Source of the DNA: a virus
Length of the DNA stretch: 59,252 nt
Virus record (IMG/VR): IMGVR_UViG_3300042975_000012
Strand: one strand, 5' to 3'
Of the stretch, positions 3,870 through 59,193 are shown in pieces. The notes under the pieces are model-generated. The model worked only from the letters and a program-made list of their open reading frames with translations, was not told the DNA's origin and ran no database searches. The position numbers were made by a program, and so were the translations under genes. Position 1 is the first letter of the stretch. Every line of letters starts with the position of its first letter.

Positions 3870-3886
3870 CAAGTATCCTTATGTAG

Positions 3887-22600: not shown

Positions 22601-23517
22601 TGAATATCAATAAGTCGACGACGCATACCACTTCGTGAATCTGTAAATTTCACAGGTTTATTCGTTCCCATGAACAACATGGTTCGGAATCGTATAGGAT
22701 ATCCAGATTTATACTTCTCATTCATCTGAATAGTCTCATGTGAAATAATCGAATTCAGTAATGTATTGTCTTCGATCCGTGACAAGTCACCATCCTGTTG
22801 AATAGCTACCAATGGGTTGCTCTTCAGTATCTCCAATGCAAACTGATTTGAAGAATTAGCTAGATTCTTCGCATTGAATACTGAAGTGTATCCATTGAAT
22901 AGCTTTTCAATCAAGTCCATAATTGTAGATTTACCAGTACCGGGATCACCATAAAAGACAAAGAACTTGTCGATGTATGCTGAATCGCCAACAAATATAG
23001 ACCCTATTGCCCATTCAATCTTCAGACGTTCGTCTTCGGAATATAGTGTCGACAAGAGTTGATCCCAAGATGGAATAGCATCGTCTTCCAAATTATAACT
23101 TAGTTTATGGGATGCCAGATCTTTTTCCGTCGTCACTTGGTCTTTGTAGGTGATTCGTTTGTCCAAGTCTTCGAAATTATCATCAAGCTGCTTGGTGTAA
23201 ATATTAAAATCATTCAGCAGATGAGTCTTCGCCGAAGCCATGGATTTTACAATAGCTAATGCTCCATCTTTATCCTTCGCTTCGAAGTCTAATTTGAAAT
23301 CCCACAATGCAGCATCGACCAGTCGAACCACATCATATTTATCAGTAGACCAAAGTCCTGACTTCTCATCATATACAGCATAGAACACTCCACCTTTGAC
23401 CATAAGGTCCGTCGCTCGTTTGTTTATGAAGTCTGGATAGATCTCATATTCATAACCTTCCGCACGAAGAGGACTCTTAGTGGAAAGTCTAGACTTTTTA
23501 ATATCAAAGAAATCCAA
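19606..23517 (-). CDS. Replicase fusion: D5_N/SF3 helicase, AEP primase-polymerase and family-B DNA polymerase with 3'-5' exonuclease
   Basis: Walker A GDPGTGKST (aa 189-197). AEP motifs ILDFDI (518-523) and SGSGVHLAYW (552-561). Exo I FFDVEV (717-722), Exo II FNNRRYD, Exo III YCCNDV. Pol A DIASMHPSS (961), Pol B KTVINSIYG (1031), Pol C HIKTDS (1083). TTG start behind AGAAAGGAACAGTC. Confidence 0.75.
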   Translation of the reverse strand: MDFFDIKKSRLSTKSPLRAEGYEYEIYPDFINKRATDLMVKGGVFYAVYDEKSGLWSTDKYDVVRLVDAALWDFKLDFEAKDKDGALAIVKSMASAKTHLLNDFNIYTKQLDDNFEDLDKRITYKDQVTTEKDLASHKLSYNLEDDAIPSWDQLLSTLYSEDERLKIEWAIGSIFVGDSAYIDKFFVFYGDPGTGKSTIMDLIEKLFNGYTSVFNAKNLANSSNQFALEILKSNPLVAIQQDGDLSRIEDNTLLNSIISHETIQMNEKYKSGYPIRFRTMLFMGTNKPVKFTDSRSGMRRRLIDIHPTGNKIPYTKYKELINQTAFEYGSIAKRCIDVYNTYGENLYADYVAIQMEEKTNLIYNFLSENYDYFLTKDGVTLAEVWDMYQTFCDSGNYQYKGNRGYFQDELKSYFENFYKRTMIDGERLRNYYEGFRYEKFAEFAMNKDKVIVEKDTIPDWLKFTEQESIFDQVMANQPAQLTNADGYPRIRWDRVTTKLLDLDTRQLHYVKVPENLIILDFDIKNSSGEKDLTLNLREASKYLKTNGEYSKSGSGVHLAYWYDGDPALLAHLVKPDVEIKVYRGNAALRRKLTKCNDIPIANMPEGILPVKEKEMISDKEIKDERHIRNLIAKAFRKEIWPNTTPNISFICTVLDEAFDSDVSYDVSDMKRDVISFATGSTHQAPYCLSMVTNMKFKSRDMIEAEKAQKESEDSIVFFDVEVFPNVFIVCYKKQGLPDCVRMINPKPEEVQRLFNYKLVGFNNRRYDNHIMYAWTQGYSNKGLYELSQRIINSSKTKDRDCFFGQAYNLSYTDIYDYCSAGNKMSLKKWEFKLDIHHVENQYPWDEDLPKQYWTEVTDYCCNDVQATEAVWNATQGDFKARQILADITGKTVNDTTNTLSTAFIFGDDPAPQKQFVYTDLSEMFPGYEFKKGVSTYRGEVVGEGGRVYVNEGTYFNVGLFDIASMHPSSLINLNLFGDKYTKRFAEIKEARIAAKHNDTEKLKTILNGELMKFVNAPDWNDIRKDLVGALKTVINSIYGLTAARFPNKARDPRNVDNIVAKRGALFMMDLTEKVEAMGYTVVHIKTDSIKVANADPKIAQFIIDYGHQYGYDFELEAVYDRMCIVNKAVYISKLALGDDGMRQSSDDSVRWSATGKQFQEPYVFKTLFSHEDYSFDDLLQHKSAQTPVYICKDGKPIRFVGKEGNFVPVMDTHTGGDLMTKRDGKFNYLSGTKGYIWNEAEVVKSVGAIDAVDLTYFDSLADDAKQAIQDNMKNCNLETVYDFINSKTSTEDTAAQQALKQFM

Positions 23518-24868: not shown

Positions 24869-25810
24869 TTAGTCCTTTGGCAGTCCATTGATGATAACAC
24901 CATCAACGTTGGGATCAATATAAATAGCAGCAGTATCAACGGTATCCAAATCAGACGTTACATTGATAGAGGGACGAAGCGTGATGTATCCGTCACCTTC
25001 AGGATCATCTTCAGTAGGCTTATACAGCCAACCAACGACGGCACCGGTTGAAGTATCTGCAAATCCAAGTGCATGATAGACCTGATTAAGGAAGACGTGC
25101 CCTTCAGTACGAAGCTTCTGGTTGTAGTAGTTCTCAACACCCTGAATGAAGGACATATTGTACTCATGATCATCATCCGAATAATTGGCGTTGGAAGAAT
25201 CAAACCACCGTGCATATACTGCTACAGGGGCATCCTTATCTACAACCTTAGTGGCTTCCTTCTTACCGGTTTCCTCATTCTTGATCTTCTCAGAACGAGC
25301 ACCCATGTAAATATCATTTTCTTTCTCTTCGCCCATAGACTTCTTGACACGAGAACGATATTCTTTGAAGGACTGATCAATTGCCGTATATGCTGCTGCA
25401 AGTGCAGCGTTGCGTTCTACAGAAATCTGCTGTCCTTTAATAGAACAGAAAACACCAATACCCATAGCCACTACTGCGGGCCAATACGTCTTAGCAAAAC
25501 CAACACCAGCAAGCATATAAAAATGCATTTTATCGTTAGTCGCATCTCTATCCGTATATGATGTCTTAGCTCCGTCAGGATATACAATGTTGAAGTCCTT
25601 GTCACGGAGCTTAATGCATTCTTGAATGCTCTCCAGATTCTCATCAAGCCTATCCTTGACATGGATAGCCTTTGGTGTTTCCTTGACTGCAAGAACCGTA
25701 CTGGCGATACTTGCTGCAATGCCCACACCGGTGAGAATTTGTGGTGCATTTTCCTTGAGTACGAAGCCTACCTTTGAGGCTGTCGCTACTACTGTTTCCT
25801 TGATACTCAT
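24869..25810 (-). CDS. Membrane protein (313 aa), paralog of 27613..28392
   Basis: Shared N-terminus ...APQILTGVGIAASIASTVLAVKETPKA vs ...LPVILTGVGVVGVVVTPVLAYKARPKV, and shared C-terminal ...LNxxYxxLGx...G...GW. Confidence 0.55.
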   Translation of the reverse strand: MSIKETVVATASKVGFVLKENAPQILTGVGIAASIASTVLAVKETPKAIHVKDRLDENLESIQECIKLRDKDFNIVYPDGAKTSYTDRDATNDKMHFYMLAGVGFAKTYWPAVVAMGIGVFCSIKGQQISVERNAALAAAYTAIDQSFKEYRSRVKKSMGEEKENDIYMGARSEKIKNEETGKKEATKVVDKDAPVAVYARWFDSSNANYSDDDHEYNMSFIQGVENYYNQKLRTEGHVFLNQVYHALGFADTSTGAVVGWLYKPTEDDPEGDGYITLRPSINVTSDLDTVDTAAIYIDPNVDGVIINGLPKD

Positions 25811-27612: not shown

Positions 27613-28392
27613 CTACAATCTATTCTCTGACTTGGGCAGGGTATTAAACTCCACCATGACCGCAGGTTTGACGTCTTCAGTAAGTATGCTGGAATATGAT
27701 ACTTGAAGCAACTTATCAGTCGTCCATCCGATATCATCACCAACGCCGATTGGCGCTAATCCCAGATAGTAATAGAAGTTGTTCAACGAACACCAACCAT
27801 CGCTATTAACCTCAAAGTTGACTTTATTCACTGCTGCATCAACTTTGTTCTGCGTCGATTTGAATTCCCTACTGGTATACCAATCAAAGAACCGCTCTTC
27901 ATCATCATCAGACCGAATATGATGCTTCTTATGTGGTTCGGGATTTTCTTCCTTCACCTTTTCTGCTACTTCTTCATCGATCTTAGCCCGTTGGTCCTTA
28001 TCAGGAACCACCTGATCTAGATGCTTTTTATATTCAGAAATAGCCGTTGTAGCAGTGCCATAGGCAGCCAAGAGTGCAGCCTTCTGCATACTAGAAGATA
28101 CATGTGCACCGATAATAGCACCTACAGTAATAACTCCTGAGATAGCCACGGGTGCCCATTTAGTCCACGTATATTTAATATATACAACCTTCTCCTTTGC
28201 TGGACTTTCAGCATTGGCGAAAGCTTCAATATATTCTTCTGAATTTTGAATAGCCTCGACTTTTGGTCGTGCCTTATATGCCAGAACTGGTGTGACCACA
28301 ACACCGACAACACCAACACCAGTTAATATAACTGGCAGGTGGTCGACTAAGGTTTTACCAATTTTATCTGTGACATCTTGTGTAGATGGCAT
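27613..28392 (-). CDS. Membrane protein (259 aa), paralog of 24869..25810
   Basis: See partner. Confidence 0.55.
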   Translation of the reverse strand: MPSTQDVTDKIGKTLVDHLPVILTGVGVVGVVVTPVLAYKARPKVEAIQNSEEYIEAFANAESPAKEKVVYIKYTWTKWAPVAISGVITVGAIIGAHVSSSMQKAALLAAYGTATTAISEYKKHLDQVVPDKDQRAKIDEEVAEKVKEENPEPHKKHHIRSDDDEERFFDWYTSREFKSTQNKVDAAVNKVNFEVNSDGWCSLNNFYYYLGLAPIGVGDDIGWTTDKLLQVSYSSILTEDVKPAVMVEFNTLPKSENRL

Positions 28393-50246: not shown

Positions 50247-52334
50247 TTACGCTTTTGGGAGTTCAAGCGTCATAACACCCTTGAGCTTCGTCTCGGCACC
50301 AGACATGCGGCCTTCCATCAGATACTTATGCTGATTGAAGTCAATGTCGAATTGATTGAAACTGGTAATGTTGCCACCCTTATCGGTACCAACATTGTAA
50401 TCTGCAAGATTCGTAACGAAGCCAAACAGCGGCTGGTCCTTCTTCGCATCATTAGTGTTGCCATCGAAGTTCTTACGGACATAGCCATCAAGCTGATCCA
50501 TAGGAATAATTTCCTTAACACCAATAGCATCAGCAAGAGCCGCCATGTTAGGATACAGACGATGACCAATCTTATCACGAGCGGTAAGAATACGGAGAAT
50601 AGTCTTACGACCGACAAACATCGAAGGCGAACCAGTTCCACGCATATCGGACATGCGAACCGTGACGTCGTCAATAAACTTGTTCAACCAAGCGGTCTTG
50701 GTGTCATCGTCATCAGAAGCCTTCGGCAGAGCATCGACCGAAAGTGCAATACGATACGCCTCATTCTCCGAAACCAAAGGACGAATATGAGTCGGATTGA
50801 CCTTATCGGGAGAAGTAGCTTCTCGACCATCACCCAACGTGATTGCCAAACCAATTTCCTGATTCAGCTTAAGACGCATGTTATTCCACAGAGTAGGAAC
50901 AATGTCAAAATTATCGGCCAAGTCGACCAAGTCATCCTGATCGAGTTTCTGCTTCGCATAAATAGTCGTAGGAGTAGTCTCGCGACCCTTAAGATCATAC
51001 CACTGCTCAAACTTCATATTACCAGTCAGGTAACCACGAGCACGAACCTTATCGACATCCTTCTCAGTGAGATCATCGCCGAGATCATAGGACACAGTCT
51101 TGATTCGAGCAAACGGACTCTTGGAAACACCGGCAAGAACAGCCTGTACCCAAGATTCATCCGAATCAACAACCTGCATACCACCAACAAGCTTAGCCTC
51201 GGGGAACAGAAGCTTCAGGCTGCTATAGGTACCAAACCCATACTTGTTAACACCAGTAGGATCTCCTGAAATGGCACCAGTCTTCGCAGTCTTTGCGCCA
51301 TACCCATCACCAGCAATGGAAGAATCGGCAGTATCAAAAGCATGTGCCAACGTCGAATCCGAGTTGTTAGCCACTTCATCAGCAAGCGCCTCCATGAAGT
51401 GGCCCTGGAAAGAACCACGCCGAGCAGCAACGAATGCGTTGTGCATCAAACTATTACGTTCCTGCATGTCGACTCGAGACGTCTCGCCGTTACTCTCAAA
51501 AGCATTGTGTTTCAATGAATTTCCTTCGCTAAAAGCATTCTTGGCCACAAGAATGGTTGGTTCATCATCATCAGAGAAAGCAGAATGCTTGATCTTATCC
51601 TCACCATCCCCATAAGTATCATTAGTATCATTAGTATCATTAGTATCATCTGGCTCTTCATCGAGAGCCATGCCCACTAGGGCATTTACAACTTCACGCT
51701 GCTTATCAGACATGGTATCGAGAACATCCTGAATGGTCTCTTCCTTGCCATCATCTTCGGTTGCCTGGTTATTACCCATTTTAGTATCCTTCACTGCTTT
51801 TTTTGACGGGTTTTCTTTTGTATCTTTTTGCGACGAGATCGCGCTGTCATAAGAATGCTCCAAATATGAATTTTCATCACCGGAATAAATAATGGCAGTA
51901 TCATCAAGCTCTTCATCAAAACCATCGCTATGAGCGATAGCAACATTCATGATAGAAGCTTTAGGATTCGCACCAGCCAAACACAAACTGACTTCACGAA
52001 TTACTCCATGAAGAACTTCATTTCCATGACTCACTAGTTTATTAGCAAAGATGGAAAGTGAAGAATAATCTCCATGGGCAAGTTGTTTTCGAACATTCTT
52101 TGCTCGAGGAGTATCATTAAGATATCCCTCGCATTCAACGCCATCCGGTTTATTATGTAGTACTACATTACCAAGAACATTATCTGGATTATTATGGTCA
52201 TGCATCCACACAAGTGGAACTTTCTGACCATCATTATCCTTAAAGGCATCTTGTCGAATAATTCGACCATCTGCACACTCAACATCATTCTTGGTAGCAT
52301 AGCCAATGAAGTCTGGTTTTATACTTCCTGACAT
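50247..52334 (-). CDS. Prohead protease (HK97/S78-like) fused through an acidic linker to an HK97-fold major capsid protein
   Basis: N-terminus KVPLVWMHDHNNPDNVLG...SLSIFAN...IREVSLCLAGANPKA is the prohead protease signature. Acidic D/E/T/N linker. C-terminal ~330 aa is capsid-like and in the capsid position. Confidence 0.7.
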   Translation of the reverse strand: MSGSIKPDFIGYATKNDVECADGRIIRQDAFKDNDGQKVPLVWMHDHNNPDNVLGNVVLHNKPDGVECEGYLNDTPRAKNVRKQLAHGDYSSLSIFANKLVSHGNEVLHGVIREVSLCLAGANPKASIMNVAIAHSDGFDEELDDTAIIYSGDENSYLEHSYDSAISSQKDTKENPSKKAVKDTKMGNNQATEDDGKEETIQDVLDTMSDKQREVVNALVGMALDEEPDDTNDTNDTNDTYGDGEDKIKHSAFSDDDEPTILVAKNAFSEGNSLKHNAFESNGETSRVDMQERNSLMHNAFVAARRGSFQGHFMEALADEVANNSDSTLAHAFDTADSSIAGDGYGAKTAKTGAISGDPTGVNKYGFGTYSSLKLLFPEAKLVGGMQVVDSDESWVQAVLAGVSKSPFARIKTVSYDLGDDLTEKDVDKVRARGYLTGNMKFEQWYDLKGRETTPTTIYAKQKLDQDDLVDLADNFDIVPTLWNNMRLKLNQEIGLAITLGDGREATSPDKVNPTHIRPLVSENEAYRIALSVDALPKASDDDDTKTAWLNKFIDDVTVRMSDMRGTGSPSMFVGRKTILRILTARDKIGHRLYPNMAALADAIGVKEIIPMDQLDGYVRKNFDGNTNDAKKDQPLFGFVTNLADYNVGTDKGGNITSFNQFDIDFNQHKYLMEGRMSGAETKLKGVMTLELPKA
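50253..50259 (-). promoter_or_regulatory. Candidate -1 slippery heptamer C_CCA_AAA at the end of the capsid gene
   Basis: Zero frame CTC CCA AAA GCG TAA. The -1 frame continues SVTSVSITASDGGVAPATLEVGKTLQLKTQVQ and stops at 50155..50157. Confidence 0.4.
51615..51650 (-). repeat. 9-bp microsatellite (agtatcatt x4) encoding DTN repeats in the protease-capsid linker
   Basis: Read directly. Encodes DDTNDTNDTNDTY. Confidence 0.9.
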
Positions 52335-52382: not shown

Positions 52383-53657
52383 CTATGCTGGTGTATCCGG
52401 TCCTTCCTCTTTAATTGGAGTAGAAGAATCTTGTGTCTCATCAATGCCATGAGTAGACTTATCTAGAGGCATATTAGGATTGATGAGAGAGTTTGCAGCA
52501 TCGGACTGTACAGCCTTCTTAAGAAGGACAGCACGAGCTTCATTACCAGTAAGAATTTGATTACGAATCATCTTATCAAAGACATCACCAAGGTCCTTGA
52601 TAGATACTAAGGCGAATGGATCTTGGAAGTACTTGATTCGTTGGCCACTATTATAAGCTCGGGTGGTCAAGAATGCAAATTCAAGACCCTGAGTTATAAC
52701 AGACAGAATTGGTTCGATTGTTCGATGCTGATAATTTTGGATGACATCAGTGCTTGCTGAACCATTCATAATTTCAGGAGTGATGCCAAGTTCTGTATAC
52801 AAATTAGTCATCAATGTGGCAACTTGGGGTGCGATAGCATTCCCAAGCGGTCGATTTAACTGAGTAATTTTATCAGAGCTTGAAGCATAAGCAACACCAT
52901 ACTTATTGGAATTAAGTTGGTCTGTAAGAAGTTTTATCTTCTTTCCAGCTTCTCGTTCCAAAGCATCAGAGCGAACATTGAATGGGAACTGCATAATAAT
53001 GTCAAGTTTATTAGCACCGATTGATTCATCATACTGGTCCATTAATGTCAACTTACGAAGAAGTCGTGTTACCGTTGAATTATTCTCATTCATTACTGAA
53101 TAAAAAGGATTCTCAAGTATAGCAACCTTATTCTTAGCGAATACCAAATCTTCGAAATTACCACTTCGATCATTATACAAGTTAAGTCTAACATGCTGTG
53201 GTAGCCATTCAACGATTCTACCAATACGCATAGATTGAATATCAAACGACGATTCGCCGCCGTGAGTATTCACTTCACTGGTAGTATCAATAGGCGCAAT
53301 AGCAACATTTCCTTCATCAAACAAGGAAAGAACTAAATCTTGAATAAAAGCTTGAGATGTCTGATCTACATTAGGACGTAATGTAAGACAACGATTTAAC
53401 GATGATGGAATGTCACCAGAATAATTGTCATACTCATCTAGTTGTACATGTCTGAAATCCTGTATAGCACAATCCAATGCTATACGATTATAGATTGCTG
53501 CAATAATAGACCGCTCACGAGTACTAGCTCGTCCTTCTTGATATGGGGCATAACCAGAAGCCCCATAATCGTAAAAAGAAGAATTAGTGTCAGTCGGCGA
53601 CTTATTTTTGAATGCGTTCCAAGCATTCTTAAGTCTATCGGTTAAAGGTTCTGTCAT
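52383..53657 (-). CDS. Portal protein
   Basis: About 425 aa between TerL-side genes and the protease-capsid gene. ATG 53657 forms an ATGA overlap with the upstream stop; the track start 53681 is a TTG. Confidence 0.65.
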   Translation of the reverse strand: MTEPLTDRLKNAWNAFKNKSPTDTNSSFYDYGASGYAPYQEGRASTRERSIIAAIYNRIALDCAIQDFRHVQLDEYDNYSGDIPSSLNRCLTLRPNVDQTSQAFIQDLVLSLFDEGNVAIAPIDTTSEVNTHGGESSFDIQSMRIGRIVEWLPQHVRLNLYNDRSGNFEDLVFAKNKVAILENPFYSVMNENNSTVTRLLRKLTLMDQYDESIGANKLDIIMQFPFNVRSDALEREAGKKIKLLTDQLNSNKYGVAYASSSDKITQLNRPLGNAIAPQVATLMTNLYTELGITPEIMNGSASTDVIQNYQHRTIEPILSVITQGLEFAFLTTRAYNSGQRIKYFQDPFALVSIKDLGDVFDKMIRNQILTGNEARAVLLKKAVQSDAANSLINPNMPLDKSTHGIDETQDSSTPIKEEGPDTPA

Positions 53658-54205
53658 ACGATACCCTGTTTCTTCAACCAACTAGTAGCTCGTTGCCGAT
53701 TTTGAAAGTTTTTGACAGTACGATAAGCCTGTTGTCCATAAAAAGAGGTTAATTTAGCAGCTCGCTTAGCAGTACGTGCTGCTCCTTGTGGATTATGAAT
53801 TGCATAAGAAGCACCTATAATAGCAGCGGCAGTACCACCTTGAATTGCTGCGGTTTTTAGCCGTCTATTGATGCGATGACGTGTTTCCTTATGCACTTGT
53901 TTCTTGTGCTCTCGGTCTCCTATAGCAATAGCATTAGAATTATCTTGTTTTGCCATAGCTTGGTCATAAGCTTTTTTATACGTTGGTGATCTTTTAGAAC
54001 GAGCAGCTACCTGATTTGTAATTAGTTTACGACGTGTTCCAGCAGTATCGCCATACATAAACTTAGCTTTTTGGGTCTCTTTGGCATCTTTCTTTGCATC
54101 ACGAACGTCTTTTCTACGACCCCACTTCATACCAGGAACACCGAAATGTTCAAGATATTCAGATTCAGTCATAGCAACGAAGTCAGTACCTTCTAGTTCG
54201 TACAT
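53654..54205 (-). CDS. MKWG-family paralog A (183 aa): conserved N-terminal module, very basic middle, hydrophobic C-terminal helix
   Basis: MYELEGTDFVAMTESEYLEHFGVPGMKWGRRK... Confidence 0.6.
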   Translation of the reverse strand: MYELEGTDFVAMTESEYLEHFGVPGMKWGRRKDVRDAKKDAKETQKAKFMYGDTAGTRRKLITNQVAARSKRSPTYKKAYDQAMAKQDNSNAIAIGDREHKKQVHKETRHRINRRLKTAAIQGGTAAAIIGASYAIHNPQGAARTAKRAAKLTSFYGQQAYRTVKNFQNRQRATSWLKKQGIV

Positions 54206-54208
54206 AAG

Positions 54209-54745
54209 TTACCTTCCTATTCCGATAAGAGTAGTATTAATAGTATGACCATATTTCTTGTAACGAGAATAGGCTTTACCGGGAGTGGTATTCATAACAC
54301 CGTGTACAACTTTACCACTCATTCGAGAAGTAAATTGCATACCATTTTTAACTGCTTGTGGGTGTCCCATTAAATAAGAATTTACCTTTAATGCAGCAAG
54401 CCCACCAATTATACGTAAAGCCGATTTAGCTAGGTCTCTATTATTTTCTAAACGTGCTGCTTCTTTTTGAGATACCTGTGCTTTACCATGAAGTTTGCGT
54501 CTAGCATTATACAGGTTAGCATTAGCTTGACGTGATTTACCAAAAGTTGTTTTTCCTACTGTTAAAAGTACATCACTAGCTTTTTTAGCTCGCTTGGCTT
54601 TTTTATAAGCTTTCTTGTTTGCAGAGTGCTCGGCTCGTTCTGCTTTTGACTTTCGTACACCCCACTTCATACCAGGAACACCGAAATGTTCAAGATATTC
54701 AGATTCGGTCATAGCAACGAAGTCAGTACCTTCAAGTTCGTACAT
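54209..54745 (-). CDS. MKWG-family paralog B (178 aa)
   Basis: MYELEGTDFVAMTESEYLEHFGVPGMKWGVRK... The first ~90 nt are about 97% identical to paralog A. Confidence 0.6.
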   Translation of the reverse strand: MYELEGTDFVAMTESEYLEHFGVPGMKWGVRKSKAERAEHSANKKAYKKAKRAKKASDVLLTVGKTTFGKSRQANANLYNARRKLHGKAQVSQKEAARLENNRDLAKSALRIIGGLAALKVNSYLMGHPQAVKNGMQFTSRMSGKVVHGVMNTTPGKAYSRYKKYGHTINTTLIGIGR

Positions 54746-54757
54746 ACAAAATATCCT

Positions 54758-56518
54758 TTAAAAATTTTCACGATGCAGTTTGAATGCAATAAAAGCATCC
54801 ATCATCGCAGAAACGGAATCTATCTTCTGAGAATATCGCTCTTTAGATAGTTTTAAATTACCATTTAAATCTTGTAATGCTACAGAATTACCCATCGTAA
54901 AAGTCATAATATCTTGGTCGAAGACAAGTTTACGTTCTTCGGCAAGATGTTTAAGTTCTCCTAACGGAACGGATTCCGTTTTAGAACCTTGAATAACTTT
55001 CTCAATATCGAAATCACCATTATCAGCAATCCAACGTTTTAGGAACTCAGGAGCATTATAAGGATCATATCCAACACAACGAACATCATACTTAGCTTCA
55101 TTAATAATAAAGTTATCAAGATCTTCGTATACTGTTTCCATATCAAGAATATCAGAATCCATGATAATCATAGAGCCATCTTTGATAAATCCATTATACT
55201 TAAGTCTCATTCCTAAAGGTAACTGATTAAGAGTAAGACTTGTAATGTAAACTCTAGTCTTCACGCCAAAGGTGTTTTCGCCCAAAGGAAACAAAAAAGT
55301 AAACGCGCAAAAGTCATCGCCACGAGATAGATCGACACCCATAGCACATGGCATACCGTCAAAGTTCTGTTCTCTATGAGGAAGTGTTTCTTCATAAGTG
55401 AAGAAATATGTATACCCTTCCATTGGTAAATTAAAACGTTTTGCTAGAATATCATTGCGAGCAGATGGATTATTATTAGCTCGCTTGACGTCGATGGCAT
55501 AAGTATCATAACTTACAGTCTTGCCAAGATTAGGATTAGCCTTGATCCAAAGTTCAGGATGTTTAATCTCTTCTTTATCATCTAACTGATAATACCAGAT
55601 TGAAACTCCGGGATCTTCATACTCACCCTTTAATATATTGGCAAGTTCAAGTTTTATGGTATCACCGACACCATTACGAACAGTGCCTTCAGAAGAAGTT
55701 GCGATTATGAGATAATCATCATTCTCATCGGCACCTTGTTTTTTAGAAGCACCCTGCTCAAGTGCAGAAATAACATCTTCCTTAATATCACCAGATAGCC
55801 ATTCGTCAACTGTCGCCACTTTAAGTCTTAAACCCTGAAGTTTATCGATTCGCATAGGTCGCACTTCAAGCAAAGAGTTTGTTGCAAAATTCTGAACACC
55901 CTTTTTGGTTGAAGCAAGCATCGGTCGATTGTCTCGATTGCCAGTTGTATTATTTAACGAGCCCATAGTCATGAGTTTAAACAAAGGACCGGGAACGCGA
56001 GACAATGCGGTTCTAAATGGTGCCATTACTTCATCTGCTTGATTCATCGTTGGCGCGGTAGTTATTTGGTGTGTTGTTTCGCGATTGATGATTAGTTCAT
56101 AGCCCTGCCATGCATAATCATACATGGACTTAGCTGCACCTCGAGGAATGATAAGATATTGCTTACGAGTAAGTCGTTTCTTGATAAGTTTAATCTCGAT
56201 ATGATATCCACGAGAAGACTCATCAGGAACTGGTACTTCACGTTTGATAAAATAATACCAACCAATAACCTGTTCGGCCCACAACTTAAAAGTAAAAAGC
56301 AAAGTCAAAGGCGAACCATCAGTAAGTACTAATTCACTTTCGCAGAATTTGATCCAACCATTAATGGCTTTGTCATCGTAATAAAAGCGAGGATCAGCGA
56401 TAAGTTTATCGATACGATTCATTTCGAGTTCGATATTTTTACAAACTGGAATTTCACCAGATAGCACAGCATCTCGAAATTGCCCATAATAAATAGGAAC
56501 GGCACTATTACTCAGCAT
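54758..56518 (-). CDS. terL: Terminase large subunit
   Basis: 586 aa. Walker-A-like IIPRGAAKS, Walker-B-like KVATVDEW, nuclease-domain GVDLSRGDD. RBS GGAGGG. Confidence 0.8.
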   Translation of the reverse strand: MLSNSAVPIYYGQFRDAVLSGEIPVCKNIELEMNRIDKLIADPRFYYDDKAINGWIKFCESELVLTDGSPLTLLFTFKLWAEQVIGWYYFIKREVPVPDESSRGYHIEIKLIKKRLTRKQYLIIPRGAAKSMYDYAWQGYELIINRETTHQITTAPTMNQADEVMAPFRTALSRVPGPLFKLMTMGSLNNTTGNRDNRPMLASTKKGVQNFATNSLLEVRPMRIDKLQGLRLKVATVDEWLSGDIKEDVISALEQGASKKQGADENDDYLIIATSSEGTVRNGVGDTIKLELANILKGEYEDPGVSIWYYQLDDKEEIKHPELWIKANPNLGKTVSYDTYAIDVKRANNNPSARNDILAKRFNLPMEGYTYFFTYEETLPHREQNFDGMPCAMGVDLSRGDDFCAFTFLFPLGENTFGVKTRVYITSLTLNQLPLGMRLKYNGFIKDGSMIIMDSDILDMETVYEDLDNFIINEAKYDVRCVGYDPYNAPEFLKRWIADNGDFDIEKVIQGSKTESVPLGELKHLAEERKLVFDQDIMTFTMGNSVALQDLNGNLKLSKERYSQKIDSVSAMMDAFIAFKLHRENF

Positions 56519-56533
56519 TATGAGCTATCCCTC

Positions 56534-56971
56534 CTATAGATGCTTATGACTCCTATGCACTGCTGCTATACCACGAGTTATACCTCGTGCAGCAGTAGAG
56601 AATCCAGTTGCTACACCTTTATCGATATTAGAAGACATATACTTGGCTCCTCGTTGTGCATAAATATTAACAGCTGCTGTAACTGTTGCGGCTAGAAGCA
56701 TTGTAGGAATCTGATATGCTACATTTGAAACAGCACTTCTATGATTTGTTTTGTAATTATTAGATTGGGAAGCGTAATTATTTTCAAGATTCATACGAGT
56801 TGTAGCTCGTTGGAGTTCTTCATTTGAAAGTTCTGATGCTTTCTTCTTTCGAACATTTCGCACAAAGTCAGATTCAGAGTTAGAAGAACGCTTCTTACGT
56901 ACTCCCCACTTCATACCAGGAACACCGAAATGTTCAAGATATTCAGATTCGGTCATAATATTGGAATGCAT
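56534..56971 (-). CDS. MKWG-family paralog C (145 aa; start may be M6 at 56956)
   Basis: MHSNIMTESEYLEHFGVPGMKWGVRKK... Confidence 0.6.
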   Translation of the reverse strand: MHSNIMTESEYLEHFGVPGMKWGVRKKRSSNSESDFVRNVRKKKASELSNEELQRATTRMNLENNYASQSNNYKTNHRSAVSNVAYQIPTMLLAATVTAAVNIYAQRGAKYMSSNIDKGVATGFSTAARGITRGIAAVHRSHKHL

Positions 56972-56989
56972 TATATCATCTTTCCATAC

Positions 56990-57643
56990 TTAATTAGCTA
57001 CATCAGTTGGTAATTCGGGAAAAGTCTGTTCTAAAGCTTCTTCTAAATCATCAGATGGGTCTGACGTTAAATCAGAATGCTCGATATGATCTATGTCATA
57101 CTCCATATTAGTGAGACCACCCCATACATCGTCTTCGGACTCAGCTTTAGTAGCCTCATGTGTAACTTTAAATCCGTTCTTCTCATAAATATGACGTGTA
57201 TCTGGTGAGTTTCCAGGAACTTCTAGTGTAAGTTTTTTGAACCCATTAATTTTACCATAAGTTATTGCTGATTTAAATACAGCTCCTGCATAACCTTTTC
57301 CTCGTTGACTGGGATTAATACCCAACCATACAAGATTGAGTTCGCCATTTCCCACATCTGCAACAGATGTATCGCCAACTTTTTTACCATTATGCGATAT
57401 AGACATATTATGACAACCAAGAAACTTTTTCATCTTCTTATCTGAAAATGAATTAACGAAAGATGCTAGTCGTCCACTACGTTCTTCAGTTACTCTGAGT
57501 TTTTCGCCATGCTTAGTTGTCACTGAAAAATCAGCTAATTTACGATTTCGAATAGTATCATAGCGTTTCTTACGTACGCCCCATTTCATACCCCGAACGC
57601 CGAAGTGTTCCAAGTATTCGCTCTCAGTCATCAAACTAGACAT
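56990..57643 (-). CDS. MKWG-family paralog D fused to a GNAT acetyltransferase domain
   Basis: MSSLMTESEYLEHFGVRGMKWGVRKK... then LGINPSQRGKGYAGAVF...LEVPGNSPDTRHIYEKNGF (GNAT motif A). Start ATG 57643 behind GGAGGCTGAAC. Confidence 0.6.
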   Translation of the reverse strand: MSSLMTESEYLEHFGVRGMKWGVRKKRYDTIRNRKLADFSVTTKHGEKLRVTEERSGRLASFVNSFSDKKMKKFLGCHNMSISHNGKKVGDTSVADVGNGELNLVWLGINPSQRGKGYAGAVFKSAITYGKINGFKKLTLEVPGNSPDTRHIYEKNGFKVTHEATKAESEDDVWGGLTNMEYDIDHIEHSDLTSDPSDDLEEALEQTFPELPTDVAN

Positions 57644-58013
57644 GTTCAGCCTCCGAATCATCTGAAGTAGTGGTGTTTCGAAGTGAACCCTCAGTTAGTA
57701 AGCGCCACTCATACTCTTTAATTTGGTCTTGAAGAGCATTGACTACAAAAGAATTCTGTGGTGGGTCAAATATAAGTCGAACATTCATATAAATGTATGT
57801 TTTAATAGCTTCATAGTCAACCATCTCTGTTGAGAAATCAGACCATTGAGTTTTATCATCTGTAATAGAGAATGCTTTCTCTGGTCCAACACCAAGCTGT
57901 CGAAGTTTAAAGAAGACACTATTGATATGAAGAATGATGTCTTGATCAAATACATCATACTCTGCTGGAAGACCCAGCAATTTTTTAATATCTGTTAAAA
58001 TGCTGTTGTCCAT
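57636..58013 (-). CDS. Head-tail connector / gp6-like DNA packaging protein
   Basis: N-terminal ILTDIKKLLGLPAEYDVFDQDIILHINSVF pattern is typical of gp6-like connectors. Confidence 0.4.
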   Translation of the reverse strand: MDNSILTDIKKLLGLPAEYDVFDQDIILHINSVFFKLRQLGVGPEKAFSITDDKTQWSDFSTEMVDYEAIKTYIYMNVRLIFDPPQNSFVVNALQDQIKEYEWRLLTEGSLRNTTTSDDSEAEHV

Positions 58014-58021
58014 AATAATCC

Positions 58022-58450
58022 TTATGCCCAGATACTAGTGTCTCCAGGATGACGTTCTAAGGTTGGTTGTTGTATGAGTTTCTCATTACCATAGTGAATT
58101 GCTTCATGTGTAATATGACTTACACAAATTAAGAATTCAGGATTAAGAATTGAGGGATCTCTATTAAGAATTTGCTCTTGTGTAATTGGATTCATATGAT
58201 GAATAAAAATCTTATGATAAAGCTCGTGTCCCTCAATCCCTAAATCACAGCCATCATCTCGAAGAATAACCTGTTGACGAACTTGTCGCCATTCAGGAGA
58301 GGTGTAAAAAGATTGATTCAGATATCGACTTCCACCGAAGGTTTCTGAAGCTACTCGACCATTGAGTTGCAAATATTGAAAACGTTCTAAAAAGGTAGAT
58401 AACTTAGAAAGCTCAGTATAGGTCTTCGTTTGGGTTATAGCATTCAACAT
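58022..58450 (-). CDS. HNH endonuclease (packaging-associated)
   Basis: WRQVRQQVILRDDGCDLG...IHHMNPIT...NPEFLICVSHITHEAIH. Adjacent to the terminase genes. Confidence 0.7.
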   Translation of the reverse strand: MLNAITQTKTYTELSKLSTFLERFQYLQLNGRVASETFGGSRYLNQSFYTSPEWRQVRQQVILRDDGCDLGIEGHELYHKIFIHHMNPITQEQILNRDPSILNPEFLICVSHITHEAIHYGNEKLIQQPTLERHPGDTSIWA

Positions 58451-58784
58451 CGCCCTCCACAGCAGATTGAGTTGGTGAATAATCCATTAATGCTTGTTTT
58501 ACATCAGCTACAAGTTTTCCAATATTCTCTTCTTGACCCATGGCAGAAACTTTTGCCGATGCAAGTTCAGATTCTTTCTTAATTCGTTCTGATTCAAGTT
58601 TTGCTCGTTCAGTTCCAAGTTTAAGAAAATGAGAGATAACTAATGGCGAAGCAGTTCCTTCACGCATTTGCTTTTCTGCTACATCCATTGCGAGCGCAGT
58701 CAATTGCTCTTCTCGAGCTTCACTGCTTTTTACAGGTGGAAATCGAGTATCTATCGGTGTATCGAATTTTGCTTTCTTGGGCAA
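58413..58784 (-). CDS. Putative terminase small subunit / packaging accessory protein (TTG start)
   Basis: First gene of the packaging block. MREGTASPLVISHFLKLG..ERAKLE pattern recalled from TerS-like proteins. RBS AAGGAGTAATC. Confidence 0.35.
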   Translation of the reverse strand: MPKKAKFDTPIDTRFPPVKSSEAREEQLTALAMDVAEKQMREGTASPLVISHFLKLGTERAKLESERIKKESELASAKVSAMGQEENIGKLVADVKQALMDYSPTQSAVEGDVECYNPNEDLY

Positions 58785-58804
58785 GATTACTCCTTGACAA
58801 ATCT

Positions 58805-58929
58805 AAACCATCCAGTGCATACAAGAGTGTACAACAATATCAAAGAAGCAAATACCTGAAAGGAACGGAAAGAGTATTTGCTAATGGGGAGTGATAATGT
58901 TGCACACTCGTGTATGCACTGGATGGTTT
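58805..58929 (-). repeat. Long imperfect inverted repeat (31-nt arms, 29/31 paired) enclosing a second 8-bp hairpin, just upstream of the terS-like gene
   Basis: Arms at 58805..58835 and 58899..58929. Inner gcaaatac/gtatttgc at 58848..58855 and 58874..58881. Confidence 0.85.
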
Positions 58930-58935
58930 ATGGTT

Positions 58936-59193
58936 TTACAAAGAAATATCTTCTAACTTTGCACGAAGTTCAAGAACTTCCAAATATTCTTTCATAGACT
59001 TAAGTTGTTTCTCAAGAGCAGCAGTTCCAGACTTCAACTCGAAATCTAATTTCCCTTCTTTGCTTTTCTTAAGCGTCTCTTCAAGAGCCTGCGAGCGCCG
59101 ACTTAGCTCATAGACCTCACCTTTGAACCGCTCTTTGTAATCAGAACTCAGAATAAGCGGAACAATAGTCTTCCAATCGGTTGGATAAGCCAT
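58936..59193 (-). CDS. Hypothetical coiled-coil protein (85 aa)
   Basis: ORF with RBS AAAGGAATCTATT. Its 5' part lies in the terminal overlap. Confidence 0.55.
   Translation of the reverse strand: MAYPTDWKTIVPLILSSDYKERFKGEVYELSRRSQALEETLKKSKEGKLDFELKSGTAALEKQLKSMKEYLEVLELRAKLEDISL

What the first reader, a model, noticed from the sequence alone, without database searches (positions are those of the whole stretch)
53654..57643. Four paralogs with a near-invariant N-terminal module, MTESEYLEHFGV(P/R)GMKWG(V/R)RK, bracketing the large terminase gene
The genes are 53654..54205, 54209..54745, 56534..56971 and 56990..57643.

- All four share the first ~25 residues.
- The first three share 55-90 nt at about 97% nucleotide identity (for example 54115..54205 versus 54655..54745, and about 56905..56960). 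The fourth is more diverged.
- Downstream they differ: lysine/arginine-rich tracts followed by a hydrophobic helix in three of them, and a GNAT domain in the fourth.

Their position inside the head-morphogenesis block, together with a shared N-terminal tag, is reminiscent of capsid-targeting sequences on packaged internal or ejected proteins. The basic tracts could bind packaged DNA.

The near-identical direct repeats on both sides of terL are also recombination substrates. Their persistence suggests gene conversion or nucleotide-level selection.
Basis: partly seen in the sequence, partly recalled or inferred. Interest (0 to 1): 0.65.

Follow-up and report, generated by a model that had tools for sequence, protein, structure and literature searches.

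The report
Shared tag on phage head-region proteins
Four genes around the DNA-packaging gene of this phage carry the same 20-residue tag (Pfam DUF7211, function unknown), which marks a very large, uncharacterised set of variable proteins that are probably loaded into the virus head and delivered with the DNA.

Summary
Four minus-strand genes, two on each side of terL, share the core MTESEYLEHFGV(P/R)GMKWG(V/R)RK. All four hit Pfam DUF7211, a 25-residue family of unknown function.

- **Not a local oddity.** The module occurs in at least 40,557 protein clusters. In 106 of 113 fetched loci it lies beside the same head module (connector, terL, portal, protease-capsid fusion), at 0-5 genes per phage between connector and portal.
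- **Lineage.** This is the Lactococcus 1706 / Faecalibacterium Oengus / actinophage BI-AM-AU-DJ group.
- **Variable partners.** These include small basic proteins, GNAT, 2H phosphoesterase and a papain-fold glutamine deamidase. Many proteins carry 2-5 modules.
- **Candidate protease sites.** A hydrophobic-x-His-(S/A/N/D) motif sits before internal modules. The same motif clusters in the disordered linker of the protease-capsid fusion.
- **Virion evidence.** Phage 1706 ORF7 has two modules and is annotated "structural protein".
- **Recombination.** Three copies are nearly identical in DNA because of recent exchange. Window p1 is a chimera, and close relatives carry one extra paralog, with the junction inside the module.

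Best reading (about 0.5): a head-loading and processing tag for ejected cargo. This is inferred and unproven. Selection on the nucleotide sequence itself is not supported.

The parts
56990..57643 (-). p4: DUF7211 module followed by a GNAT acetyltransferase domain and an acidic C-terminal tail containing IEHSD
   Evidence: Pfam DUF7211 at 38.4 bits and Acetyltransf_1 at E 2.8e-7. The RBS GGAGG lies 7 nt before the ATG at 57643. Homologous DUF7211-GNAT fusions sit next to terL in Gordonia, Arthrobacter and Streptomyces phages. Weak similarity to SpeG and RimI.
56534..56971 (-). p3: small basic DUF7211 protein directly upstream of terL. It starts MHSN and has a second conserved helical motif, KKxSELSNEELxxxxxRMNLENNY.
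   Evidence: Pfam at 41.3 bits. Homologue alignment A3. In the AF2 model the module is disordered and helix 32-75 has pLDDT 80-87. A DUF7211 gene lies directly upstream of terL in 60 of 81 loci. It is in frame with p4 and fused to it in relative L006.
54758..56518 (-). Large terminase, bracketed by the paralogs
   Evidence: TerL_nuclease at E 5.9e-38 and phrog_9 at E 1.7e-102. It is 65-67% identical to the TerL of Gordonia, Streptomyces and Faecalibacterium phages.
54209..54745 (-). p2: small basic DUF7211 protein (pI 10.4)
   Evidence: Pfam at 40.6 bits. pI. Relatives share the first 29 residues and then diverge completely.
53654..54205 (-). p1: small basic DUF7211 protein. It is a chimera of the leader and module of one paralog with the body of another.
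   Evidence: Pfam at 37.6 bits and a full-length phrog_6291 match. Three-way DNA alignment with L005. Break in collinearity at 54108-54188.
57566..57631 (-). Module copy 4 (22 codons): same peptide, 13-14 synonymous differences from the others
56891..56956 (-). Module copy 3 (22 codons), near-identical DNA to copies 1 and 2
54647..54712 (-). Module copy 2 (22 codons)
54107..54172 (-). Module copy 1 (22 codons). It contains the recombination junction relative to the three-paralog relatives.
52383..53681 (-). Portal protein. It marks the downstream boundary of the paralog array and is a candidate docking partner.
   Evidence: Phage_portal at E 3.9e-11 and phrog_12. Synteny census.
50247..52334 (-). 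Prohead protease (S78) fused to an HK97-fold major capsid protein. A candidate docking and processing partner.
   Evidence: Peptidase_S78 and phrog_3270 at E 8.9e-160. Homologues carry PF04586 plus PF05065. AF2 domains: 5-130 and 391-695. Foldseek hits to HK97-fold capsids and encapsulins.
51165..51944 (-). Disordered linker (aa 131-390) of the protease-capsid fusion. It holds six hydrophobic-x-His-(S/N/A) motifs (IAHS, LEHS, IKHS, LKHN, LMHN, LAHA) that are candidate maturation cleavage sites.
   Evidence: Motif positions. Enrichment of 181 versus 17, Fisher p 1e-44. Column conservation, with H135 and H331 invariant. pLDDT below 50.
57636..58013 (-). Phage_connect_2 head-tail connector, the upstream boundary of the paralog array
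   Evidence: PF24829 at E 2e-36 and phrog_4247 'virion structural protein'

Best explanation
**What the genes are.** The four genes belong to the DUF7211 family. Its defining feature is a roughly 20-residue linear motif, (D/E)(F/Y)L-x-H-(Y/F/H)-G-(V/I)-x-G-(M/Q)-(K/R)-W-G-(V/I)-R-(K/R). The motif is unstructured on its own.

**Where the family sits.** In one widespread siphophage lineage (Lactococcus 1706-like, Oengusvirus, and actinophage clusters BI, AM, AU, AW, DJ, CC and EL) the motif is attached to a changing set of proteins. These are encoded between the connector gene and terL, or between terL and the portal gene.

**Proposed mechanism (inferred).**
1. The proteins are made late, together with the head proteins.
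2. The module docks them inside the assembling procapsid. The partner would be a conserved head component: the protease domain or linker of the protease-capsid fusion, or the portal.
3. The prohead protease cuts the capsid-fusion linker at hydrophobic-x-His sites. It also separates fused [cargo-module-cargo] polyproteins at the same kind of site about 10 residues upstream of each module. The L-x-H inside the module may itself be a substrate-like element.
4. The three small, very basic proteins (p1-p3) stay with the packaged DNA. Enzymes such as the p4 GNAT are carried in the virion and delivered to the next host with the DNA.

**DNA-level identity.** The near identity of three module copies is a by-product of recent homologous recombination or gene conversion between paralogs. 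The same process adds and removes paralogs.

**Shown here:** family membership, distribution, synteny, partner domains, recombination junction, motif enrichment.

**Inferred:** encapsidation, the docking partner, the cleavage sites, ejection.
For: **Family membership.** All four genes hit DUF7211.

**Size of the family.** A profile of the module finds 40,557 clusters (50% identity) at E<=1e-3. The top hits carry 2-5 modules in proteins of 220-1570 aa.

**Synteny.**
- In 38 of 39 viral-contig loci and 68 of 74 genome-bin loci, found by the motif alone, the genes lie next to homologues of the same terL, portal, connector and protease-capsid fusion.
- Gene count between connector and portal ranges from 0 to 5.
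- Among 50,697 phage genomes the module (187 records) and the protease-capsid fusion (244 records) occur in the same genera. Examples: Gordonia 55/55, Streptomyces 52/54, Rhodococcus 4/4.

**Partner domains.** They are effector-like: GNAT, Gln_amidase 'papain fold toxin 1', 2H/LigT phosphoesterase and CW_7. GNAT and 2H domains are also reported fused to MuF or portal domains in predicted packaged effectors (PMC5512222).

**Candidate protease sites.**
- Of 348 internal modules, 68 have a hydrophobic-[K/E]-H-[S/D] motif 15-17 residues upstream of GMKWG (96 within 14-19).
- The same motif class occurs 181 times in the 250-residue linker of 37 protease-capsid fusions, against 17 times in their capsid domains (p 1e-44).
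- It sits at conserved alignment columns and in a region with pLDDT below 50.

**Fusion and fission.**
- Window p3 starts M-H-S-N.
- In the 97.7%-identical relative L006 a TAA-to-GAA change fuses p4 and p3 across an I-M-H-S junction.
- Both the split and the fused state therefore exist in nature.

**Virion evidence.** Lactococcus phage 1706 ORF7 lies between connector and terL, has two DUF7211 modules (41.8 bits) and is annotated 'structural protein' in the authors' record.

**Protein properties.** p1-p3 have pI 10.2-10.4. The module is disordered in the AF2 model of p3.

**Recombination.** The chimeric p1 and the 2-versus-3 paralog polymorphism have their junction inside the module. A V/I difference is shared by p2 and p3 within a genome but differs between genomes.
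Against: - **No direct evidence of encapsidation.** None exists for the window's proteins or for any close relative. The experimental basis of the 1706 'structural protein' label could not be read: Garneau 2008 is not held.
- **ReqiPepy6.** Its record does not label its DUF7211 genes as virion proteins. The paper could not be read.
- **Cleavage specificity is inferred only.** It rests on motif recurrence. Only about 20-28% of internal modules have the His motif at the expected distance (68 of 348 at 15-17 residues, 96 of 348 at 14-19), and others show Q-(S/T/D) instead.
- **The docking partner is unknown.** TerL is the most conserved neighbour and could equally be the partner, which would point to a packaging role rather than a cargo role.
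- **Possible membrane proteins.** Some homologues are annotated 'membrane protein', and p1-p3 have moderately hydrophobic segments.
- **Position of the module.** In proteins such as Gordonia Secretariat gp12 and ReqiPepy6 gp013 the enzyme domain lies N-terminal to the module. The module is therefore not simply an N-terminal leader.
Confidence: 0.5

Rival explanations
1. The module binds the packaging machinery (TerL or the portal clip) rather than loading cargo. On this view the DUF7211 proteins are assembly or packaging accessory factors. The conserved small protein directly upstream of terL (p3 type) would act as a TerS-like or portal-gating cofactor. The paralogs would be variants of that factor, not ejected cargo.
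For: - The genes flank terL, and a DUF7211 gene lies directly upstream of terL in 60 of 81 loci.
- TerL is unusually conserved in this lineage, at 65-67% identity across phyla (Koert et al.). That matches the near invariance of the module.
- p3-type proteins form a conserved subfamily with a second helical motif.
- No Pfam TerS domain was found in the window.
Against: - A separate small protein (58413-58784, phrog_4259) holds the usual terS position. Its homologue is the first gene at the left genome end in RosaAsantewaa and lies beside the HNH gene in all loci.
- The module is attached to GNAT, glutamine deamidase toxin-like, 2H phosphoesterase and cell-wall-binding domains, and occurs up to five times in one protein. 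That is hard to reconcile with a packaging cofactor.
- Copy number varies from 0 to 5 between related phages.
Confidence: 0.2
2. The module is a short linear motif that targets late-expressed phage proteins to a conserved host component or to the membrane inside the infected cell. Possible roles are lysis timing, superinfection exclusion or host shut-off. No virion incorporation would be involved.
For: - p1-p3 have a moderately hydrophobic segment.
- Some homologues are annotated as membrane proteins.
- The partner domains are typical host-modifying enzymes.
- The module is disordered, as expected for a short linear motif.
Against: - The motif is essentially invariant in contigs assigned to Actinobacteria, Firmicutes, Bacteroidota and others. 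MAG labels are unreliable, but cultured hosts already span two phyla.
- The motif tracks one phage head-module type, not a host clade.
- The genes sit inside the head operon.
- 1706 ORF7 is labelled structural.
- Hydrophobicity is below transmembrane level.
Confidence: 0.12
3. The repeat is maintained at the DNA or RNA level as a recombination hotspot, a regulatory or translational element, or a packaging signal. The shared peptide would be incidental.
For: - Three copies are 97-100% identical over 55-88 nt, while the flanks are unrelated.
- A recombination junction lies within the repeat.
Against: - The fourth copy keeps the peptide with 13-14 synonymous changes in 22 codons.
- The peptide is conserved across genomes of very different G+C content, with different codons.
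- Within-genome codon identity at identical residues is only 0.52, against 0.37 between genomes. Just 10 of 79 phages have any pair at or above 0.9.
Confidence: 0.03

Closest known systems
Pfam PF23847 (DUF7211), family of unknown function
   Same: All four window proteins score above the gathering threshold. They have the same invariant H, G, G, W and G positions.
   Different: There is no difference at the sequence level. The family carries no functional annotation, and no paper in the searchable library mentions it or its motif.
Phage T4 capsid targeting sequence (CTS) on internal proteins IPI, IPII and IPIII and on the Alt ADP-ribosyltransferase
   Same: A short shared leader is attached to several otherwise unrelated proteins. 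These are small, very basic proteins plus a host-modifying enzyme. The logic of prohead loading, protease trimming and injection with the DNA is the same (established knowledge; reviewed in PMC3012670 and PMC7697877, listed).
   Different: - There is no sequence similarity.
- The T4 CTS is about 10 residues, strictly N-terminal, and removed at (L/I)xE by the S77 protease gp21. DUF7211 is about 20 residues, often internal and repeated, and belongs to a siphophage lineage with an S78 protease fused to the capsid protein.
- Loading and cleavage are proven for T4 and only inferred here.
MuF / SPP1 gp7-type head proteins fused to polymorphic toxin or effector domains, and phage 'polyvalent proteins' (PMC5576092, PMC5512222)
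   Same: A conserved head-association module is joined to variable enzymatic domains, including GNAT and 2H phosphoesterase. The genes lie next to the portal and terminase genes, and the effectors are predicted to be packaged and injected.
   Different: - No MuF domain is present.
- DUF7211 is a short linear motif rather than a folded domain of about 100-300 residues.
- Several separate paralogs occur per genome rather than one large protein.
- DUF7211 is tied to a different head-module type.
Encapsulin cargo-loading (targeting) peptides
   Same: A short conserved peptide is attached to diverse cargo encoded next to an HK97-fold shell gene. The window's capsid domain structurally matches encapsulin shells as well as phage capsids.
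   Different: - Encapsulin peptides are usually C-terminal and have different sequences.
- Encapsulins have no DNA packaging and no protease processing.
- No homology is shown.
Lactococcus phage 1706 ORF7 ('structural protein'), and the DUF7211-GNAT 'acetyltransferase' genes of Gordonia DJ, Arthrobacter AU/AM and Streptomyces BI phages
   Same: The gene positions match: between connector and terL, or between terL and portal. The module is the same. p4 is 35-49% identical over 80-96% of its length to these acetyltransferases.
   Different: - The window phage has low G+C (39.6%) and no near-DNA relative among deposited phages.
- The bodies of its small paralogs are only distantly related to, or unrelated to, those of the actinophage genes.

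Membership tests
Pfam DUF7211 (PF23847) | HMM score at or above the 27-bit gathering threshold | tested here: met
   Scores are 37.6, 40.6, 41.3 and 38.4 bits for p1-p4.
Pfam DUF7211 (PF23847) | Genomic association with the 1706/Oengus/actinophage head module (connector, terL, portal, protease-capsid fusion) | tested here: met
   The window has this gene order. The same holds in 38 of 39 and 68 of 74 independently retrieved loci.
GNAT acetyltransferases (PF00583) | GNAT domain HMM match above threshold (p4 only) | tested here: met
   31.3 bits against a cut-off of 20.7. The nearest solved relatives are spermidine/diamine N-acetyltransferases at E 7e-6. The substrate is not determinable.
T4-type CTS-bearing internal proteins | Presence in the mature virion and injection with the DNA | not testable with these tools
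   The only indirect evidence is the 'structural protein' annotation of 1706 ORF7.
T4-type CTS-bearing internal proteins | Strictly N-terminal leader of about 10 residues, removed by the prohead protease at a defined site | tested here: not met
   The module is about 20 residues. It is preceded by 4-11 residue leaders and is frequently internal or repeated. Cleavage itself is not testable. The candidate sites are of the hydrophobic-x-His type, not (L/I)xE.
MuF / SPP1 gp7 head protein-effector fusions | Phage_Mu_F (MuF) domain | tested here: not met
   No MuF hit was found in any of the four proteins or in 92 scanned homologues.
MuF / SPP1 gp7 head protein-effector fusions | Conserved module joined to polymorphic enzymatic or toxin domains and encoded beside portal and terminase | tested here: met
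   Partner domains are GNAT, Gln_amidase, 2H/LigT, CW_7 and HTH. This is a functional analogy only.
Small terminase subunit (rival for p3) | Match to a TerS family, or the canonical position as the first gene of the packaging operon | tested here: not met
   p3 has no TerS Pfam, NCBIfam or PHROG hit. Another gene (58413-58784) holds the conserved left-end position beside the HNH gene.
Integral membrane proteins (rival for p1-p3) | A hydrophobic segment of transmembrane strength | tested here: inconclusive
   Maximum 19-residue Kyte-Doolittle score is 1.08-1.26, below the usual value of about 1.6. No dedicated transmembrane predictor was available.

The most novel reading that the evidence does not exclude
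DUF7211 would be a general, portable 'load-and-cut' tag for HK97-fold phage capsids.

- It is a roughly 20-residue peptide whose L-x-H half mimics the maturation cleavage sites of the fused protease-capsid protein. Compare FLAH|G before the capsid domain with FL(A/E)H(Y/F)GV in the module.
- It would dock any attached protein to the protease domains lining the procapsid.
- The same protease would then resolve multi-cargo polyproteins at hydrophobic-x-His sites.
- This would let tens of thousands of phages across several bacterial phyla swap, fuse and split ejected effectors and DNA-coating basic proteins by recombination at the tag.
Probability: 0.3. Interest if true: 0.85.

Novelty: new variant of a known kind. 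Interest (0 to 1): 0.62.

Why it matters
If the tag does load proteins into the head, several things follow:

- It would be the first defined capsid-targeting signal for a large siphophage lineage. The lineage infects Gram-positive and other hosts and includes dairy Lactococcus phages, gut Faecalibacterium, Lachnospiraceae and Bifidobacterium phages, and several hundred SEA-PHAGES actinophages.
- It would assign a role to a domain of unknown function present in more than 40,000 protein clusters.
- It would point to a large hidden repertoire of injected effectors: acetyltransferases, glutamine deamidases, 2H phosphoesterases and many unannotated domains. These probably act in the first seconds of infection, for example in counter-defence.
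- It would offer a simple handle for loading foreign proteins into phage capsids.
- The candidate P1-His specificity of the fused S78 protease is testable in its own right.

Several members are culturable and genetically tractable, so the question can be tested directly.

Tried and rejected
**Searches that found nothing**
- A near-DNA search of the region against deposited phages gave no match.
- Full-text searches for 'DUF7211' and for 'GMKWG' inside words gave no relevant paper.
- Sequence and profile searches of the PDB with p3, with the module profile and with the protease-capsid profile gave nothing usable.

**Literature that did not help**
- Searches for virion proteomics in this lineage were unproductive.
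- The Arthrobacter and Giantsbane papers describe the protease-capsid fusion but not these paralogs.
- The two papers most likely to hold virion mass-spectrometry data (Garneau 2008 on 1706, Summer 2011 on ReqiPepy6) are not held.
- The actinophage capsid dendrogram paper states that the cleavage sites of large delta domains cannot be predicted.

**Analyses with limited yield**
- AF2 of p3 gave a low-confidence model (mean pLDDT 58). I did not use it for fold search.
- A strict regular expression for the second p3 motif recovered only 6 of 60 upstream genes. I dropped it as a classifier.
- The first protein-database search was word-limited and returned only 22 hits. The exhaustive representative search was needed.

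**Ideas considered and rejected**
- That p4, p3, terL, p2 and p1 sharing one reading frame is meaningful. The frames differ in relative L005, so this is probably chance plus fusion-fission history.
- Misassembly.
- Nucleotide-level selection.

**Not attempted**
- I did not submit artificial peptide-partner fusions to the structure predictor, because only natural window or database sequences are allowed.

Full report
**1. The observation**

The window is a roughly 59-kb siphophage genome of 39.6% G+C, with essentially all genes on the minus strand. Read on the minus strand, the order in the region is:

- a small conserved protein in the usual terS position (58413-58784);
- an HNH endonuclease (58022-58450);
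- a Phage_connect_2 connector (57636-58013);
- p4 (56990-57643), then p3 (56534-56971);
- terL (54758-56518);
- p2 (54209-54745), then p1 (53654-54205);
- the portal (52383-53681);
- a prohead-protease/major-capsid fusion (50247-52334).

All four p genes contain MTESEYLEHFGV(P/R)GMKWG(V/R)RK. The motif follows leaders of 11, 11, 5 and 4 residues.

The direct repeats are as described. There are 88 nt at 98% identity between p1 and p2, about 55 nt identical in p3, and 75% identity in p4. p4 carries a GNAT domain. p1-p3 are small and very basic (pI 10.2-10.4), each with one moderately hydrophobic Ala/Gly-rich segment that falls short of transmembrane strength.

**2. What the module is**

All four proteins hit Pfam PF23847 (DUF7211), a 25-position family of unknown function, above threshold. 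PHROGs places them in unannotated families. One weak match is to a family labelled 'virion structural protein'.

I built a profile from 18 module sequences and searched it exhaustively against 1.84 billion cluster representatives. It finds 40,557 proteins at E<=1e-3. The best hits contain 2-5 modules in proteins of 220-1570 residues.

The module has no counterpart in the PDB. Neither 'DUF7211' nor the motif string appears in any relevant paper of the searchable library. In an AF2 model of p3 the module is unstructured (pLDDT 44-54). A second conserved element, KKxSELSNEELxxxxxRMNLENNY, forms a confident helix.

**3. Lineage and synteny**

TerL is 65-67% identical to the terminases of Gordonia (DJ), Streptomyces (BI) and Faecalibacterium (Oengus) phages. 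This is the inter-phylum supercluster described by Koert et al. (bioRxiv 10.1101/842583), which also includes the Lactococcus 1706-like phages.

The motif is present in genes flanking terL in several members:

| Phage | Modules near terL |
|---|---|
| FP_oengus | 1 |
| Gordonia Secretariat | 5, two of them internal |
| Streptomyces RosaAsantewaa | 1 |
| Bifidobacterium BitterVaud1 | 2 |
| ReqiPepy6 | at least 3 |

Two censuses retrieved loci by the motif alone:

- **Viral contigs.** 38 of 39 loci carry homologues of the same terL, portal, connector and protease-capsid fusion.
- **Bacterial and archaeal genome bins.** 68 of 74 loci do so. Most exceptions are short contigs, or second clusters elsewhere in the same phage-sized contig.

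Among 63 non-redundant loci with a complete connector-to-portal interval, the number of DUF7211 genes is 0 (2 loci), 1 (20), 2 (18), 3 (12), 4 (9) or 5 (2). In 60 of 81 loci one lies directly upstream of terL.

In the 50,697-genome phage collection the protease-capsid fusion (244 records) and the module (187 records, found with a short and insensitive query) occur in the same genera with near-matching counts. The window's arrangement is therefore typical of a very widespread lineage. It sits at the high end for copy number.

**4. What is attached to the module**

Scans of 28 long homologues from the loci and 64 top representatives show a recurring set of partners:

- GNAT;
- Gln_amidase ('papain fold toxin 1');
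- 2H/LigT phosphoesterase;
- the CW_7 cell-wall-binding repeat;
- HTH;
- many regions with no annotation.

The DUF7211-GNAT architecture of p4 is conserved next to terL in Gordonia, Arthrobacter and Streptomyces phages, at 35-49% identity. The GNAT is only weakly similar to SpeG and RimI, so its substrate is open.

This repertoire overlaps the domains reported fused to MuF or portal domains in predicted packaged effectors and 'polyvalent proteins' (PMC5512222). No MuF domain is present here.

**5. Candidate processing sites**

- In multi-module proteins, a hydrophobic-[K/E]-H-[S/D] motif is enriched 15-17 residues upstream of GMKWG. That is about 10 residues before the module's invariant Leu. 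A Q-(S/T/D) variant appears in others.
- The same motif class recurs 4-8 times in each protease-capsid fusion. All occurrences lie between the protease and capsid domains: 181 in the linkers against 17 in the capsid domains of 37 sequences, Fisher p 1e-44. In the linker, 55% of all His residues sit in this context, against 16% elsewhere.
- The window protein has IAHS, LEHS, IKHS, LKHN, LMHN and LAHA at residues 133-332. The His columns are conserved in 31 diverse homologues, and H135 and H331 are invariant.
- AF2 with that alignment gives confident protease (5-130) and HK97-fold capsid (391-695) domains. The linker (131-390) has pLDDT below 50 and contains all six motifs.

I infer that these are maturation cleavage sites of the S78 protease. 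I also infer that polyproteins are cut at equivalent sites upstream of each module.

Three local observations fit this:

- p3 begins M-H-S-N.
- p4 and p3 are in frame, separated by one TAA. In the 97.7%-identical relative L006 that codon is GAA, which gives a 369-residue GNAT-module fusion across an I-M-H-S junction.
- The p4 tail contains IEHSD.

The module's own (F/Y)L(E/A)H resembles the last conserved linker site, FLAH(G/A). It could therefore be substrate-like. That step is speculative.

**6. Evidence for virion association**

Lactococcus phage 1706 ORF7 lies between the connector (orf6) and terL (orf8). It has two modules (LQHRGVIGMRWG and LLHKGVKGMKWG; DUF7211 at 41.8 bits). The authors' record annotates it 'structural protein'.

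From memory, such labels in that laboratory's records come from mass spectrometry of virions. I could not verify this because the paper is not held. No other proteomic evidence was found.

**7. The DNA-level identity**

- **Recent exchange among three copies.** Over the 54-nt core up to the second-last G, p1-p3 differ by 0-1 nt. Across the full 22-codon module, p4 has 13-14 differences in synonymous codons from the others. Downstream DNA is at random identity.
- **Collinearity with relatives.** The window is collinear with relatives L005 and L006 at 97.7-99.2% identity, except that they carry three paralogs (178, 171 and 183 aa) between terL and portal. The two collinear blocks overlap at window 54108-54188.
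- **p1 is a chimera.** A three-way alignment shows window p1 has the RBS, leader and module of the 171-aa gene joined to the body of the 183-aa gene. The 183-aa gene's own leader in L005 is different (MYNIPNTDLIAMDESEY). The crossover lies in the last 25 nt or so of the module.
- **Both forms occur in nature.** Two-copy (L008, L009, L011) and three-copy (L005-L007) forms are both seen.
- **Sign of conversion across terL.** A Val/Ile difference in the module is shared by p2 and p3 within a genome but differs between the window and L005. That suggests gene conversion across terL.
- **Not a general feature.** Within-genome codon identity at identical residues is 0.52, against 0.37 between genomes. 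Only 10 of 79 phages have a pair at or above 0.9.

Protein-level selection therefore maintains the module. The high DNA identity in this window is a recent recombination footprint.

**8. Interpretation**

The best-supported model is that DUF7211 is a head-association and processing tag. It brings a polymorphic set of proteins into the procapsid of this lineage. The small basic proteins would stay with the DNA, and enzymes such as the GNAT would be delivered to the next host.

This works like the T4 capsid targeting sequence on internal proteins and Alt. It also resembles MuF-effector fusions and encapsulin targeting peptides. It is not homologous to any of them, and it differs in being a longer motif that is often internal and repeated, tied to a protease-capsid fusion.

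I put this at about 0.5. The rivals are:

| Rival | Confidence |
|---|---|
| Packaging or assembly cofactor binding TerL or the portal | 0.2 |
| Intracellular or membrane targeting motif without encapsidation | 0.12 |
| DNA-level element | 0.03 |

**9. Novelty and score**

As a sequence family this is already catalogued, so the four genes are ordinary members. The function is uncharacterised.

The combination found here is a new variant of the known theme of virion-packaged effectors. That combination comprises strict linkage to one head type, effector-like cargo, polyprotein forms with candidate P1-His protease sites, and tag-mediated gain and loss of paralogs. It is directly testable in culturable phages. 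Interest: 0.62.

Noticed in passing
window 58804-58842 and 58892-58930: A 39-nt inverted repeat, 92% complementary, with a 49-nt loop. It lies between a crAss001_48-related small gene and the putative terS gene near the genome end. It could be a terminator, an operator or a cos-associated structure.
   Followed up: no
window 58936-59193 (-): An 85-aa protein matching PF21825. This Pfam copy labels it 'crAss001_48 related protein'; the contig gene table calls it 'Sequestin'. It sits at the extreme end of the genome and is conserved in relatives L005 and L006.
   Followed up: partly
window 24869-25810 (-) and 27613-28392 (-): A second paralog pair in the same genome. Both proteins are full-length DUF6353 (E 2e-63 and 1e-53).
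   Followed up: no
window 933-3872 (-): A 979-aa protein with helix-turn-helix domains at both ends. It matches the description of the lineage's signature 'HTH protein', which Koert et al. proposed to be a YonO/RdRP-like RNA polymerase.
   Followed up: partly
window 19606-23517 (-): A 1303-aa protein with a P4-type primase C-terminal region (DUF5906) and a weak DNA polymerase-like C-terminus. It is probably the primase-polymerase of the replication module.
   Followed up: no
window 53654-57643 (-): p4, p3, terL, p2 and p1 all lie in the same reading frame, separated by 18, 15, 12 and 3 nt. p4 and p3 are divided by a single TAA, which is GAA in relative L006 and gives a 369-aa fusion there. The frames are not all shared in L005, so the five-gene run may be partly chance.
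   Followed up: partly
window about 51621-51659 (-), within the protease-capsid linker: An Asp-Thr-Asn triplet repeat (DTNDTNDTNDT) in the linker. Homologues in close relatives are 695, 698, 688 and 684 aa long, so the linker shows length polymorphism.
   Followed up: no
L052 and L108 (same 58-kb contig CAMVKW010000024.1); L090: Some relatives carry extra clusters of DUF7211 genes 10-20 kb away from the head module, or at least eight DUF7211 genes in one 10-kb stretch. The family is therefore not strictly confined to the terL flanks.
   Followed up: no
L002 (Gordonia Secretariat gp12) and L125 (ReqiPepy6 gp013): In these proteins a 2H/LigT phosphoesterase domain lies N-terminal to an internal DUF7211 module, followed by a tail of about 190 residues, directly upstream of terL. 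This looks like an enzyme fused to a p3-type protein, analogous to the GNAT-p3 fusion in L006.
   Followed up: partly
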